DNA of 64,000 nucleotides from assembly GCA_964106915.2 (NCBI GenBank), contig OZ066925.1, one strand, 5' to 3'. Every line of letters begins with the position of its first letter. Positions within the stretch are counted from its first letter, which is position 1. A program made the position numbers. The stretch comes from Podarcis gaigeae (Eukaryota). This document shows, piece after piece, positions 41,601 through 50,600 of this stretch.

Positions 41601-44600
41601 AAGTAATGAGCTAAACATTACCAGAAAAGTTTTAAAGAAAATGTTAAATAATTCCATAGAAATTGTGCTACACTCTGATATTTTGAGGTAGTATGAATGA
41701 TCAAATCTGTGCTGTGAATCATAAATTATTATTTATCCTGAAAAATAATATCCTGAAGTGCCATGATTCATAGAGGCGTAATGTTTTTCCCCCCTCCATG
41801 ACTTTCAATTTTGTATTTTGAGGGGGGAGGAAATGTGAAGAAACACTGATAAAACCTGCTATGCATTATTTTCTCTTTTGGAATGAATTAATTGCTTTTA
41901 GGACAAAATTTCATCTACATGTGTGTTGTATGAAGATTTTTATGTGGAACAGTTTCATAGCATTTGAGAATGATATTCTCTGTCCCAATAGTATATACAC
42001 ATGTGTAATACATACAAAACTTAAAAGCGAGATTCCGTACAAGAGGGTGCTGCTACCTTTATACAAGGAATAGATAAGTCCCATGTTTCTTAACTATTGC
42101 CTGCCTTCTTTTTGTGACTTCGTTCTAGCCTGCATCTGCTGTCTTGTTGCTTAAACAAAATTAAGGTTTCAATCCTAGAGATGCTTACCTGGGAGTAAGT
42201 CCCACTGAACCATTGGGGCTAATTTCTGAGTAGACATGCATAGGACTACACTGTTAAGTCATTTATACTTTTGAGGTTGCAAGCCTATGGATACTTAAGC
42301 AAGCACCACTAAATTGCTTATGAGCATACATTGCTTTAGGACCGCCCTGCAAATTTCATGTATAACTTAGTGTTGTACTAGCCAATATACAGTCGTACCT
42401 TGGAAGCCGAACGCCTTGGCTCCCGAACAAATTGGCTCCTGAACACCCTGTCACGGGGATTCGAACCGCTGACCATTCAATTGGCAAGCCCAAGCAGCAC
42501 AGTGGTTTAACCCACAGCGTCACCCATATCCCTAACCACTGTATTAGCAACACATTTAACATTAAAACAATAAATTAAAGTTCAGTACTGCCCCTATTTG
42601 GGACGCGGGTGGCGCTGTGGGTAAAACCTCAGCGCCTAGGACTTGCCAATCGCATGGTCAGCAGTTCGAATCCCCGCGGCGGGGTGCGTTCCCGTTGTTC
42701 GGTCCCAGCGCCTGCCAATCTAGCAGCTCGAAAGCACCCCTGGGTGCAAGTAGATAAATAGGGACCACTTACCAGCGGGAAGGTAAACGGCGTTCCGTGT
42801 GCTGCGCTGGCCACGTAACCCGGAAGTGTCTGTGGACAGCACTAGCTCCCGGCCTATAGAGTGAGATGAGCGCACAACCCTAGAGTCTGGCAAGACTGGC
42901 CCGTACGGGCAGGGGTACCTTTACCTTTTACCTTTACTGCCCCTATTGCAGTCCCCCCCCCCAAAAAATGTGACCATGTTGAAACCATGGATGTTACTCC
43001 ACCCATCACCTTGAGTATTTTGTCACTTGATACCTACAACTCCTTCCACTTATAATGTTTCTTTTATCACTGGAAAGTTGTTCCAGTCAGTGGATTTGTC
43101 ACTGGAACTATTCCCACCTCACCTATGTTTGTGAAGTGGCTACATCTAATGCACACAAGCAGGTGGACACTTCCCCTTTGACTCAGGGCTCTCCTTTGCA
43201 CACTTAAATGCCACAACACCTGACCCAACCCAACAGTTGCGTAATGGTGGTGCCAGGAACTGCTGCTACTCCTGTTCATGCTTCCTCTTTGCAGCAACCA
43301 TCCCATTGGCATTCCTAGTGCTGCACATGCCTTCTCAAGACCTATGAACCTCAGGGCTTGCATGACCAAGAAGCATGTCTCTGTCATCTTGGCACTGGGA
43401 CTATTACTCCCTGCTCTATTAATTTCTGTGTTGAAACAAGTCTACATCTTTGTTGCCAGGGCAACAGGGCAGAAGTCTTCTGTTGCGGCTTTGATGCCCA
43501 TTCAACCAACTGAGTCACTCTGTTCTGCTGCAGTGGTTGTTGCCACACTTCAGAAAGGTGTGTGTGTGTATGAAGGGAGAGAGGGCTAGGAATTATGAAA
43601 GCCCCTGAATTAATATAGCTCAGTGTTATTCAGTCAGGTTTTAATGTTCTTTGGTTAACTTTCAGTTAAGTTACAAAATTGCAGCAATTCGTTTTTCACC
43701 ATTAATGTTTAACAAAAGACTGCCGGTAAGAAATAAATGATTATGAAGAAGGTGCAAATACTTCAGGAGACGCTCATAATAGTAGCTCAGGCATTGTATG
43801 TTATGAAAAGGGGCTGCAACTGAAGTATAATATTTCGGGCCAGAGTTAGCATTTCAGCATATACATTAATTAGGAGGAAAACCGGTGTACAGTGGTACCT
43901 CGGGTTAAGTACTTAATTCGTTCCAGAGGTCCGTTCTTAACCTGAAACTGTTCTTAACCTGAAGCACCACTTTAGCTAATGGGGCCTCTGTTGGGATTCG
44001 CAGGATACTGGATAAGTCTGCAGGCTTCAACAGGATGATGCAATACTCTGCTGGGTCAGAGTGACTCAACAGGAGTGTGATTTGTGTGATTGGCTATCAC
44101 CTGTTTTAAAAGGAAAGCCTGTTTAACAGTGGGTGTGGTGGTTGTGCTGTAGTGTGGTGGTGGAGAGTATTCGTTTGTAAGTACTCTGTATGGACTGTTT
44201 CTTTTGTAAATGCCTGTATCTAGCTCACATTAAAAAAGACTGCACTGGAAAAACCTGGAACTCTTAGCGTCTCTGCTAAAAGCGCCACGTGGAATACGCG
44301 ACAGGGTTATGGGCCCAGCACGCTTCCACTGCGTAAGAGTACAGGTGGCAGTTATCTAGCCGTGGGTGCTGGAGGTGAGCTGCAGGGATGGAGCAGTCCA
44401 GAACTGGCGTGTTGCTGGAGAAGCTGACAGCCACGAACTACAGCATCTGGTCGGTCCGCATGCAACACTTCCTCAAGCGTGAGGGCCTGTGGAAGGTGGT
44501 GGAAGTGCCACCGCAGCCCCCTGAGGAGGATGAAAAGGATGAGAAAGTTTTGGCTACGATCATCCTTGGAGTGGACGACAGCCAGCTAGTCTACGTAGCT

Positions 44601-47600: not shown

Positions 47601-50600
47601 CCCATAACTACCCAGTACAAAAATGAACCAGAAGGGCAAAAATGTGAGAATGCAACAGCGTTTCATTCTCTGTTGGGTTCTCTGTTATATTTAAGTTGTT
47701 GGACAAGACCCGACATAACATTGGCAGTGCACATGTTAAGCCAAAGAAGTGCAGACCCGGCTCAGAGAGATTGGGTAGCACTTAAAAGAATCCTAAGGTA
47801 TCTGAAAGGCACAAAAGATTACAAACTGGTGCTGGATACAGGATATGATCAGCAAGTCTATGCATACTCTGATGCCAGCTGGGGGGACAGAGAAAATGGA
47901 AAGTCTACCACTGGCTATGCCATATATATTGGAAATGCCCTGGTTCAGTGGAAATCCCAGAAACAAACATTTGTTGCCACAAGTACTTGTGAAGCAGAGT
48001 ACTCAGCCATAAGCGAATGTGTATCACAAATAGAATGGTTTGCTTGCCTAACAAAAGAGCTTGGAATACCTTCTGAAATGCCAATCACTGTGCTAAGTGA
48101 CAACATGGCTGCACAACAGCTTGCCAACCAACAGAACTTTAAAAGCAAGAGTAAACAATTGCTATAAGATACGGAAATGTGAAAAATGTTTTGGAAAGAA
48201 ATGTGTTAAAGGTACAGCACTGTAACACAAAATGTAATGTGGCAGATTTGTATACAAAATGTTTGGATGCTCCTAAATTTCGAGACTTAAGAGAATTATT
48301 AGGTCTCAAGCCTTTGACTTAAGGAGGAGTGTTGGGATTCGCAGGATACTGGATAAGTCTGCAGGCTTCAACAGGATGATGCAATACTCTGCTGGGTCAG
48401 AGTGACTCAACAGGAGTGTGATTAGTGTGATTGGCTATCACCTGTTTTAAAAGGAAAGCCTGTTTAACAGTGGGTGTGGTGGTTGTACTGTAGTGTGGTG
48501 GTGCTTTGGTGGAGAGTATTCGTTTGTAAGTACTCTGTATGGACTGTTTCTTTTGTAAATGCCTGTATCTAGCTCACATTAAAAAAGACTGCACTAGAAA
48601 AACCTGGAACTCTTAGCGTCTCCGCTGAAAGCGCCGCGTGGAATACGCGACAGCCTCCTGCTGCTGCTGCTGCTGCCGCGCCGCCGGAGCACGATTTCTG
48701 TTCTCATCCTGAAGCAAAGTTCTTAACCCAAGGTACTATTTCTGGGTAATCGGAGTCTGTAACCTGAAGTGTATGTAACCTGAGGTACCACTGTAGTTGA
48801 AAAAAATCATTTAGTAATGTTCCTTTGTCTGCTTTTTTTTTAAAAAAAGTAGAATGCACTGTTACTTCAGAAAACAGACTCCACCCAAAGTGGTTATTTT
48901 TTCTGTGCCTTGTTTCATTGTTGGTTTTTAGCACGTGTAGCGAGAAAGAGAGAGAGAGAGACTGTATCTGTATCTGTATACTGTATATATGAGTGAGAGA
49001 ACAGGTTTGTTATAAGAAAAGTTAACATGAGATTAAAACTGCAAAAATTGTGGATTTATTTTCGCACTTTGTCAGGGACTCGAAGGACAGTGATGGGTGT
49101 GCACCAGGAGAAGAGGGGATGGAGTCAGACTCAGGAGAGCGGGGCAGTGATTTGTGGGGAACTGTACCGATCAGGAGACAAGAGTTGGAGGCAGGGGAAA
49201 CTTCAGAGATGGAAGGTGGAGCACAGGATGGGTTGGAAGAAAAGGAGGAAGAGGCAAGTCAGGCAAGTGAGGGGACGATGCTTGCCCACCCTCTTCTGCA
49301 CCACTGTCCCAGAACGAACAGGCTGAAAAGGGCTGAATAGGCTCAGTCTTCAGCTATGTGTGCACAGTCTATTGTAGGAAGGTACATAAAAGTGGTAGAA
49401 GGGGAGTGGTCCCCTGTTGCTGCAACTGCTCCCTAGAGCACAGCCGTGTACAAATATCCAGAGCTGCAGAAAGGGCTGTAAGTGCTATCTTGGACAATAA
49501 AGAGTTAACTATTTGCCATTCCTTTGACTGGGGCGTGCTCTTGACACACTTAGGGGGCAAAATATTTTATTTGTTTGTTTAGTAAAAAAATATTCATATA
49601 GCGCTGTGTTATAAAATATCGCAGTGTTTGCAACCATGTAAAAGCATAAAGCCAGATAATAAAATCATAAAAGCTTAGAAACAGATTAAAATCAAATAGA
49701 AATCAGAAACAGACACCAGTGGAACATTGTGGGGGAATATATGCTTCATTGGCTGCATAGGCCTGGCAGAATAGAAAAGTTTTCAGCAGGCATTTAAATG
49801 TTGGCACAGAAGACACCTGCTGAATTTCAATCGGCAAGGTGTTCCACAGGACTGGGTCGATGACACTAACGGCTTGATTTCTTATAGAATACAGTACGAA
49901 ACGTGTGTGCGCATCCAAGTCTTAAACACACACTGAACCCTGTATAAAGGAGCAGAAATCTATTGTGGGATTAAGGGCTTTAGAGTGTGGTGTTCGGTTT
50001 CTTTGACTCAGGTAGGATACAATGGATGCTGACTATATTGGAGCACTGTTTGCACATGTTTCAGTCACTGCTCAGGCTTAGTTTAAAGGGAAGCATATAG
50101 CTAAATGCTGAGGATCTGTAATAAAAGCAAACATTTGTTGTTGAGCTGTAAATCTGTTAAAGCTACTCTTAAGAAGACTAAATAAATGATGCTTTTCCAG
50201 GCTCCCCTCAAAATACGCCTGCCTGTGTGATGCCTATTAATACACATACAAAGAATGCAAAGGGTTGCCAGAAATAGTGCATCCCTAAAACACCTTTTTA
50301 TGCTGCAATAAATTATTGCTTGTCACTTTTATTTTACATATTTTAAAAAGTTCTGCCCCACTTTTCACCACGTATTCCAAAGCAACTTACTGGGGGGGGG
50401 GGGTGTGGAACCATATAATATGCAAAAAAAATAAGCATACAACATTAGAGAGTAGAATATTAGAACAATATTCAAGGTGCAAAGGCCTCTTGAAATAAAA
50501 CTTTTAGCTTAGTGACAGAAACTTAACAGTTTTATTGCATCATCAACGTACATGACACTTTAAAAAGTAAGAAAAAAGTAAGATACCTAACCAGGTATAC

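What the first reader, a model, noticed from the sequence alone, without database searches (positions are those of the whole stretch)
43989..48652. Young, nearly intact Ty1/Copia retrotransposon in an amniote genome
Seen: complete LTR-PBS-gag/pol-PPT-LTR structure with a perfect 5-bp TSD. The LTRs differ by 6 substitutions in ~315 bp plus one 8-bp indel. Only two frame lesions occur in ~3.9 kb (TAA at 47568; frameshift near 48157), plus a likely Cys>Trp change in the Gag CCHC knuckle. Established: Copia elements are abundant in plants, fungi and insects but sparse in vertebrates and essentially absent from mammals and birds. Inference: the family was recently active in this lizard lineage, intact siblings probably exist, and its patchy distribution makes horizontal transfer worth testing.
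Basis: partly seen in the sequence, partly recalled or inferred. Interest (0 to 1): 0.7.

Follow-up and report, generated by a model that had tools for sequence, protein, structure and literature searches.

The report
Decayed Copia retrotransposon in a lizard
This is a real but no longer intact Ty1/Copia jumping gene, a few million years old, sitting in a wall-lizard-type genome; such elements are already well documented in lizards and snakes, so it is an ordinary find.

Summary
Window 43989-48652 (+) is a complete Ty1/Copia LTR retrotransposon. It has 315/323-bp TG..CA LTRs differing by 6 substitutions and one 8-bp indel, and a 5-bp target duplication. An uninterrupted paralogous copy of the host repeat shows that duplication is real. 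The PBS abuts the 5' LTR, the PPT abuts the 3' LTR, and a gag-PR-IN-RT-RNase H gene lies between. The gene is broken by one in-frame stop and one frameshift, both in pol. This copy's gag also has two short in-frame deletions and one altered zinc-knuckle ligand, relative to 3 of 3 compared family members. All six named close relatives are Podarcis lilfordi gene models, so the host is probably a lacertid lizard. LTR divergence gives an age of about 5-13 Myr. Copia elements, including recently active ones, are already in print for anoles, a phrynosomatid and the corn snake. I found no support for horizontal transfer: CpG depletion matches the host and the best outside relative is 39% identical. 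One notable detail is that the PBS pairs with an internal part of initiator tRNA-Met (29 of 30), as in Drosophila copia.

The parts
43984..43988 (.). Left target-site duplication (GCCTC)
   Evidence: Read. The same 5 bases follow the 3' LTR. The uninterrupted paralogous repeat copy has only one GCCTC.
43989..44303 (+). 5' LTR, 315 bp, TG..CA
   Evidence: It differs from the 3' LTR by 6 substitutions and one 8-bp indel.
44304..44333 (+). Primer binding site. It is complementary to linear nucleotides 11-40 of initiator tRNA-Met in 29 of 30 positions, an internal 'half-tRNA' type.
   Evidence: A 17-base stretch of it occurs in 3 papers as the antisense of mammalian initiator tRNA-Met. I counted the extent by eye against those printed oligos. 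It starts at the first base after the LTR.
44388..48322 (+). gag-pol polyprotein gene, broken. The pol part has 1 in-frame stop and 1 frameshift. The gag part has 2 short in-frame deletions and 1 altered zinc-knuckle ligand relative to family members.
   Evidence: The natural stop codon overlaps the PPT.
44424..44945 (+). Gag capsid region (DUF4219 plus Retrotran_gag_2)
   Evidence: Pfam PF13961 E 5.1e-10 and PF14223 E 1.2e-25. PDB 'Copia VLP protein' 8vvw_A E 1.4e-15.
45195..45428 (+). Protease region (Pol_BBD), DSG active-site motif present
   Evidence: PF22936 E 8e-14. The motif was read.
45504..46439 (+). Integrase: GAG-pre-integrase zinc region, rve catalytic core and SH3-like domain. HHCC and D,D,E residues are present.
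   Evidence: PF13976 E 7.2e-06 (26.1 bits, below Pfam's curated cut-off of 28.4), PF00665 E 1.1e-14, PF25597 E 9.7e-17. PDB 'Integrase' 7z0h_W E 4.4e-15. Residues were read.
46881..48322 (+). Reverse transcriptase (RVT_2, YVDD present) and RNase H. This is the part that carries both frame lesions.
   Evidence: PF07727 E 6.1e-57. The RNase H stretch aligns to the C-terminal part of full-length relative P0004 (E 4e-35, 33% identity).
48321..48329 (+). Polypurine tract directly upstream of the 3' LTR
   Evidence: Read.
48330..48652 (+). 3' LTR, 323 bp, TG..CA
48653..48657 (.). Right target-site duplication (GCCTC)
43888..43988 (+). Left half of the host repeat that received the insertion (MITE-like, with terminal inverted repeat)
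   Evidence: Inverted-repeat pair I1. Alignment to the uninterrupted copy at 61200-61460. The TIR 22-mer has 6 matches in the window against 0 expected.
48653..48795 (+). Right half of the same host repeat, including a short (CTG)n run

Best explanation
This is a dead copy of a Ty1/Copia (Pseudoviridae-type) LTR retrotransposon family resident in lacertid lizards.

Shown:
- The copy integrated into the middle of a small palindromic host repeat and duplicated 5 bp of target.
- It then decayed in place. The LTRs have drifted about 2% apart and the polyprotein gene has acquired one stop and one frameshift in pol. Gag has two short in-frame deletions and one altered zinc-knuckle ligand.
- The catalytic motifs of protease, integrase, RT and RNase H are still readable.

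Inferred, by analogy with Drosophila copia and yeast Ty1:
- An LTR-driven transcript would be translated into a single Gag-Pol polyprotein.
- Gag would form particles.
- Reverse transcription would be primed at the PBS by a 5' fragment of about 40 nt of initiator tRNA-Met, not by the tRNA's 3' end. The PBS pairs with tRNA nucleotides 11-40.
- Plus-strand synthesis would start at the PPT, and integrase would insert the DNA with a 5-bp staggered cut.

This copy cannot itself make the full polyprotein. Copia is part of the normal squamate repeat repertoire, so the family is probably inherited vertically.
For: - Structure: LTRs, TG..CA ends, target duplication, PBS and PPT. An empty paralogous site has a single GCCTC.
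- Domain order gag-PR-IN-RT from 7 Pfam families, including RVT_2 at E 6.1e-57 and Retrotran_gag_2 at E 1.2e-25. The RNase H stretch aligns to a full-length relative at E 4e-35.
- The best solved-structure matches are 'Copia VLP protein' (8vvw_A, 1.4e-15) and 'Integrase' 7z0h_W (4.4e-15), out of 13 matches.
- Lesions: 11 of 11 relatives aligned, two frames, one stop; gag differences against 3 of 3 relatives.
- Host and family: 2 of the 120 listed proteins and 5 of the 120 are close (69-92% local identity, 93-97% in ungapped stretches). Six of these 7 are named Podarcis lilfordi.
- PBS. Half-tRNA priming of Drosophila copia is stated in PMC5371799 and PMC10275265 (passages).
- Age: using rates quoted in PMC12142722 and PMC12961865 (passages).
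- Copia is known in squamates.
- Host-like CpG depletion: o/e 0.30-0.33 in the element against 0.26-0.29 in the flanks.
Against: - No DNA of other copies or of other squamate genomes could be searched, so copy number, the age spectrum and vertical inheritance are inferred, not shown.
- Rfam found nothing at the PBS (0 matches), and no tRNA gene lies in the window. The PBS-tRNA comparison therefore rests on mammalian tRNA oligos printed in papers, not on the lizard's own tRNA.
- Beyond the family, the nearest relative is an unnamed contig protein at 39% identity, and the deep nodes of my small NJ tree are unresolved. The family's position within Copia is not settled.
- The stop and the frameshift could in principle be assembly errors; no reads were available.
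Confidence: 0.93

Rival explanations
1. The copy is really intact or nearly so, and the stop and frameshift are errors of sequencing or assembly.
For: There are only two frame lesions in about 3.9 kb. All catalytic motifs are readable. Single-base indels are a common assembly error (general knowledge).
Against: The LTRs differ at 6 sites plus an indel. That predicts roughly 1% change in the internal part, enough to expect one or two stops and a few indels. The copy also has two in-frame gag deletions and an altered knuckle ligand not seen in 3 of 3 relatives. A substitution making a stop is not a typical assembly error.
Confidence: 0.08
2. The family entered the lacertid lineage by horizontal transfer from an invertebrate or other distant donor.
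For: There is a large gap between family members (93-97% in aligned stretches) and everything else (39% or less) in an exhaustive search. The nearest named sequence in the small tree is from a wasp, Leptopilina. Copia distribution in vertebrates is patchy.
Against: The gap is expected because annotated vertebrate proteomes leave out most transposon genes, and no squamate, amphibian or fish Copia set could be compared. 39% identity is far too distant for any sampled donor. CpG o/e of the element (0.33; internal part 0.30) equals the host's (0.26-0.29). TpG and CpA are in excess, as expected after long residence in a methylating germ line. Copia is recorded in several squamate families and is inferred ancestral to vertebrates.
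Confidence: 0.06
3. The element is much older than the LTRs suggest, and the LTRs have been homogenised by gene conversion.
For: LTR-LTR conversion is known for retroelements (general knowledge). The age estimate rests on only 6 substitutions.
Against: The target duplication is perfect. The coding region has only two frame lesions. The protein is 93-97% identical to other family copies in aligned stretches. All of this fits about 2% divergence.
Confidence: 0.05

Closest known systems
Drosophila melanogaster copia (type element of Ty1/Copia)
   Same: It has the same domain order and a single gag-pol gene. Gag matches the solved 'Copia VLP protein' (8vvw_A, E 1.4e-15). The target duplication is 5 bp. 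The PBS is complementary to an internal part of initiator tRNA-Met rather than its 3' end; the half-tRNA primer of copia is stated in PMC5371799 and PMC10275265.
   Different: The relationship is only distant: no Drosophila protein appeared among the listed hits. The host is a vertebrate. PBS complementarity is long, 29 of 30, whereas a review gives 8-18 nt for retrotransposons (PMC7773854). I recall the length of copia's own PBS and primer from memory and did not check them.
Copia families of Anolis carolinensis and other squamates (Repbase Copia-N_ACar; the corn snake OCA2 insertion)
   Same: Same superfamily in the same host order. They show evidence of recent activity: 1,962 Copia insertions in the table of polymorphic insertions in anoles, and a Copia insertion causing a colour mutant in corn snake that hits Repbase Copia-6 of A. 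carolinensis.
   Different: No sequence of those families was available here, so the relationship is untested. This family's named members are all from a lacertid.
GalEa clade of metazoan Copia (fish Zeco1/Olco1, crustacean GalEa1/CoRex1)
   Same: These are metazoan Copia elements present in vertebrates (teleosts), with TG..CA LTRs and an initiator tRNA-Met primer (PMC3587641, passages).
   Different: GalEa-type elements are reported with a 12-nt PBS that is identical in GalEa1 and CoRex1; that it matches the tRNA's 3' end is my reading, because the passage was cut off there. This element has no such PBS after its LTR and instead pairs with tRNA nucleotides 11-40. Protein similarity to GalEa was not tested because no GalEa protein was at hand.
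Saccharomyces cerevisiae Ty1
   Same: Same superfamily. The integrase matches the chain 'Integrase' of entry 7z0h (E 4.4e-15); I recall that entry as Ty1 integrase, but the tool gives only the name 'Integrase'.
   Different: Ty1 expresses pol through a programmed frameshift and uses a bipartite PBS with the tRNA 3' end (PMC5371799). Here gag and pol are in one frame, and the only frameshift lies inside pol and is a lesion.

Membership tests
Ty1/Copia LTR retrotransposons (Pseudoviridae-like) | Two LTRs in direct orientation with TG..CA ends | tested here: met
   315 and 323 bp, 6 substitutions plus 1 indel.
Ty1/Copia LTR retrotransposons (Pseudoviridae-like) | Short target-site duplication (5 bp for most Copia) | tested here: met
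   GCCTC on both sides. A single GCCTC in the uninterrupted paralogous repeat.
Ty1/Copia LTR retrotransposons (Pseudoviridae-like) | Integrase encoded upstream of reverse transcriptase (gag-PR-IN-RT-RH) | tested here: met
   Pfam order along the protein: gag, Pol_BBD, gag_pre-integrs, rve, SH3_retrovirus, RVT_2. The RNase H stretch follows.
Ty1/Copia LTR retrotransposons (Pseudoviridae-like) | Copia-type RT (Pfam RVT_2) and Copia-type Gag | tested here: met
   PF07727 193.5 bits (cut-off 31.6) and PF14223 90.3 bits (cut-off 27). PDB Copia VLP protein.
Ty1/Copia LTR retrotransposons (Pseudoviridae-like) | PBS next to the 5' LTR, PPT next to the 3' LTR, no env gene | tested here: met
   The PBS starts at the first base after the LTR. 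The purine run ends at the 3' LTR. The pol stop codon overlaps the PPT, leaving no room for env.
Copia elements primed by a 5' half of initiator tRNA-Met (as Drosophila copia) | PBS complementary to an internal region of tRNA-iMet, not to its 3' end | tested here: met
   29 of 30 bases pair with linear nucleotides 11-40 of the mammalian tRNA-iMet sequences printed in 3 papers. I counted by eye, because sequence taken from a paper may not be typed into a tool.
Copia elements primed by a 5' half of initiator tRNA-Met (as Drosophila copia) | A cleaved tRNA fragment actually serves as primer | not testable with these tools
   This needs small-RNA or particle-associated RNA data from the host.
GalEa clade (fish/crustacean Copia) | 12-nt PBS of the tRNA-iMet 3'-end type a few bases after the LTR | tested here: not met
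   The sequence after the LTR does not carry the PBS quoted for GalEa1/CoRex1 in PMC3587641.
GalEa clade (fish/crustacean Copia) | RT/RH grouping with GalEa1/Zeco1 in a phylogeny | not tested
   No GalEa or Zeco protein came back from any search.
Autonomous (coding-competent) element | Uninterrupted gag-pol reading frame | tested here: not met
   One stop and one frameshift in pol, plus gag differences.
Curated squamate Copia families (Repbase/Dfam) | About 80% or higher nucleotide identity to a curated family sequence | not testable with these tools
   No Repbase, Dfam or GyDB copy and no eukaryotic genome collection were on hand.

The most novel reading that the evidence does not exclude
The lacertid family may represent a vertebrate Copia lineage that is distinct from the fish GalEa/Zeco clade. 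It would prime reverse transcription with a 5' half of about 40 nt of initiator tRNA-Met, the unusual mechanism so far tied to Drosophila copia. Its PBS pairs over 30 nt, about twice the usual length, reaching from the anticodon stem back to the D arm. From recalled knowledge, the 5' limit of pairing could mark where copying of the primer is stopped by a modified base near tRNA position 9-10. If so, half-tRNA priming is an ancient Copia trait retained in amniotes, and lizard 5' tRNA-iMet halves would have a retroelement-linked role.
Probability: 0.45. Interest if true: 0.35.

Novelty: new member of a known kind. Interest (0 to 1): 0.18.

Why it matters
It matters little beyond annotation. The locus is a clean, datable Copia insertion with a verified empty-site paralogue, and could serve as a presence/absence marker among lacertid species. 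It also gives a family-level entry point for describing Copia dynamics in wall lizards, which the searched literature does not cover. In one search, 3 papers hold both 'Copia' and 'Podarcis'; the passages I read in 2 of them do not describe a lacertid family, and the third, seen only in the listing, concerns alligator BTB genes. The internal tRNA-iMet PBS is the one feature a retroelement specialist might want to follow across vertebrate Copia.

Tried and rejected
- Rfam on the PBS region at permissive threshold and on the whole window at gathering threshold: 0 matches each. ARAGORN found 0 tRNA genes in the window. No tool-held tRNA was therefore available for the PBS test, and I used oligo sequences printed in papers instead.
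- The bacterial-type promoter/terminator scan of the 5' LTR found 0 sites. It is irrelevant for a eukaryotic LTR, so I draw nothing from it.
The Atlas does not hold the window protein. The Atlas on P0241 gave generic Copia clusters with taxa mostly unrecorded. The last protein search, with P0241, returned only relatives at 38% local identity or less, none of them from a vertebrate.
- Pfam on 19 other window ORFs (4 of the 5, all 15) gave nothing. The fifth ORF is an RVT_1 reverse transcriptase. No host gene that would name the locus was found.
- The NJ tree of 18 sequences resolves only the pairing with P0241 (100 of 100). The 8 plant-labelled sequences formed one split in only 2 of 100 replicates, so I draw no deep placement from it.
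- I rejected an endogenous retrovirus or Gypsy identity on domain order and RT type.
- I rejected a programmed frameshift: the shift lies inside pol, and full-length relatives read through it in one frame.

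
Full report
**1. What is there.** A direct-repeat search around the reported coordinates returns one repeat pair, split in two by an indel, at 43989-44304 and 48330-48653. Reading the ends and aligning them gives a 5' LTR at 43989-44303 (315 bp) and a 3' LTR at 48330-48652 (323 bp). Both begin TG and end CA. They differ by 6 substitutions (2 at CpG sites) and one 8-bp indel. The five bases GCCTC precede the 5' LTR (43984-43988) and follow the 3' LTR (48653-48657).

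**2. The duplication is real.** The two flanks are the halves of a small palindromic, MITE-like host repeat. Its terminal inverted repeats lie at 43888-43912 and 48771-48795. The 22-base terminal motif occurs 6 times in the window against 0 expected. An uninterrupted copy at 61200-61460 (-) folds as a hairpin (z = -4.4). I aligned the flanks separately to that copy. The uninterrupted copy reads straight through the insertion point with a single GCCTC. This paralogous 'empty site' shows that the element inserted there and duplicated 5 bp.

**3. Coding content.**
- The longest open stretch carries seven Pfam families in this order: DUF4219, Retrotran_gag_2, Pol_BBD, gag_pre-integrs, rve, SH3_retrovirus and RVT_2. 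RVT_2 scores E 6.1e-57 and Retrotran_gag_2 E 1.2e-25.
- Integrase upstream of an RVT_2-type RT is the Ty1/Copia arrangement.
- The following open stretch has no Pfam match. It aligns to the C-terminal RNase H part of a full-length relative (P0004, E 4e-35).
- The protease DSG, integrase HHCC and D,D,E, RT YVDD and RNase H acidic motifs can all be read.
- Among solved structures (13 matches) the best are 'Copia VLP protein' (8vvw_A, E 1.4e-15; 8s41_A, E 2.4e-14) and 'Integrase' 7z0h_W (E 4.4e-15). The other ten are retroviral integrases.
- The pol stop codon overlaps a 9-base purine run that ends at the 3' LTR. There is no room for an env gene.

**4. State of the gene.**
- I ran tblastn of 11 full-length relatives (1261-1373 aa) against the element. 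All 11 aligned, with outer bounds 44388-48319. Five needed two reading frames to reach their C-termini and six stopped short in one frame. Ten had one stop inside the aligned stretches and one (P0003) had three.
- The gene is therefore broken by one in-frame stop and one frameshift, both in the pol part downstream of integrase.
- I compared 3 of the 7 family proteins found, residue by residue: P0001, P0002 and P0122. The other four were not compared. Against all three, this copy also lacks two short in-frame stretches in gag and has one zinc-knuckle ligand position that is not met.
- Pfam's zf-CCHC model did not match at E <= 0.01.
- Places of the lesions are deliberately not given.

**5. Primer binding site.**
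- The sequence directly after the 5' LTR does not look like a 3'-end tRNA PBS.
- A 17-base stretch of it occurs in three papers. In each it is part of an antisense oligo or cDNA for mammalian initiator tRNA-Met (PMC5648532, PMC6508675, PMC1797187; passages).
- Counting by eye against those printed sequences, window 44304-44333 is complementary to linear nucleotides 11-40 of that tRNA in 29 of 30 positions. Pairing begins at the first base after the LTR.
- This is the 'half-tRNA' arrangement reported for Drosophila copia, whose primer is a 5' fragment of tRNA-iMet (PMC5371799 and PMC10275265, passages). The original 1986 paper was not seen.
- It differs from the GalEa clade of fish and crustacean Copia, for which a 12-nt PBS is quoted (PMC3587641, passages). 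It is also longer than the 8-18 nt given for retrotransposons in PMC7773854 (passage).
- Rfam and ARAGORN gave nothing here, and the lizard's own tRNA was not available.

**6. Relatives and host.**
- In the word-indexed protein search, 508 proteins passed E <= 1e-3 among 8000 scored. Of the 120 listed, 2 are close (84% local identity), both named Podarcis lilfordi. The other 118 are at 37% or less.
- Among shorter proteins, 168 passed E <= 1e-20 of 6975 scored, and 120 were listed. Five are close (69-92%): four Podarcis lilfordi and one unnamed contig protein. The other 115 are at 42% or less.
- In ungapped stretches the family members are 93-97% identical to this copy.
- The Podarcis models lie on contigs of four different lengths, so the family is multi-copy. 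All seven are fragments of 173-584 aa; none is full length.
- The exhaustive HMMER search of 1.84 billion representatives found 136,350 proteins at E <= 0.001. Apart from the family's two representatives, the best is P0241 at 39%, an unnamed contig protein. All 148 other listed hits are at 39% or less.
- Attempts to name P0241 or its kin failed.
- In a small NJ tree (18 sequences, 958 columns) the lizard protein pairs with P0241 in 100 of 100 replicates. Next comes a group that includes a Leptopilina wasp protein. Deeper nodes are unresolved.
- The host is thus most likely a lacertid lizard, Podarcis or a near relative. Nothing suggests a human contig.

**7. Age.** Six substitutions in 315 bp give K = 0.019. 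A median squamate rate of 1.75e-9 per site per year is quoted in PMC12142722, and a rate of 7.7e-10 is used in PMC12961865. With these the insertion is about 5.5 or 12.5 Myr old. The Poisson range is 2-27 Myr. 'Young' is fair only relative to most vertebrate repeats.

**8. Horizontal transfer.** I found no positive evidence.
- The element's CpG observed/expected ratio (0.33; internal part 0.30), with TpG and CpA excess, matches the flanking genome (0.26-0.29). A copy only about 2% removed from its insertion state cannot have acquired that depletion in place. The family had therefore probably lived long in a CpG-methylating germ line.
- The literature I read treats Copia as part of the ancestral vertebrate repertoire, lost in birds and mammals (PMC4350176).
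- Copia is recorded in Anolis carolinensis, with 1,962 Copia entries in the table of polymorphic insertions (PMC7561263). It is recorded in Urosaurus at 0.67% of the genome (PMC10699878). It is also recorded in the corn snake, where a Copia insertion matching Repbase Copia-6 of A. carolinensis underlies the amelanistic allele (PMC4657000).
- The isolation of the family in protein space reflects the absence of vertebrate transposon proteins from annotated sets at least as much as biology.

**9. What stayed unchecked.**
- No eukaryotic genome collection and no copy of Repbase, Dfam or GyDB was available.
- As a result, copy number, solo LTRs, intact siblings, curated-family identity and a proper phylogeny remain open.
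- The window itself holds no other copy.

**10. Verdict.** It is too generous about its youth, its rarity and the transfer idea. This is an ordinary, decayed member of a superfamily already known to be present and recently active in squamates. At most it is an undescribed lacertid family. The only mildly unusual feature is the long internal tRNA-iMet PBS.

Noticed in passing
window 43888-43988 and 48653-48795; other copies at about 26986-27230, near 32666-32687 and at 61200-61460: A MITE-like palindromic repeat of about 250 bp with terminal inverted repeats of about 22 nt and a central (CTG)n run. The terminal motif occurs 6 times in the window against 0 expected. One full copy folds as a hairpin (z = -4.4). 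The Copia element sits in the middle of one copy.
   Followed up: partly
window 4377-5804 (+), with an overlapping antisense ORF at 4835-5776 (-): A 475-codon ORF with an RVT_1 reverse transcriptase domain (E 5.1e-40). It is presumably part of a non-LTR retrotransposon. A 313-codon ORF runs antisense to it.
   Followed up: no
window 49027-49340 (+): A purine-rich stretch with two overlapping ORFs of about 97-99 codons and no Pfam match. It lies in the 48001-50000 bin, where strong positive GC skew (0.195) continues past the element's end. Its origin is unknown.
   Followed up: no
protein hits (not in the window): Copia polyproteins in public sets carry misleading names: 'transposase InsO family protein', 'histone deacetylase 1/2', 'putative mitochondrial protein', and one assigned to Corynebacterium sp. 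MC-10 (P0432). These probably reflect automatic naming and eukaryotic contamination of a bacterial assembly. A Citrus-labelled protein (P0097) grouped with insect sequences in the small tree.
   Followed up: no
window 44099-44118 and 44228-44236 (and the same places in the 3' LTR): There is an A/T-rich TATA-like stretch and an ATTAAA-like motif inside the LTR. These could mark the promoter and the polyadenylation signal (U3/R/U5 limits). I read them by eye and did not test them.
   Followed up: no
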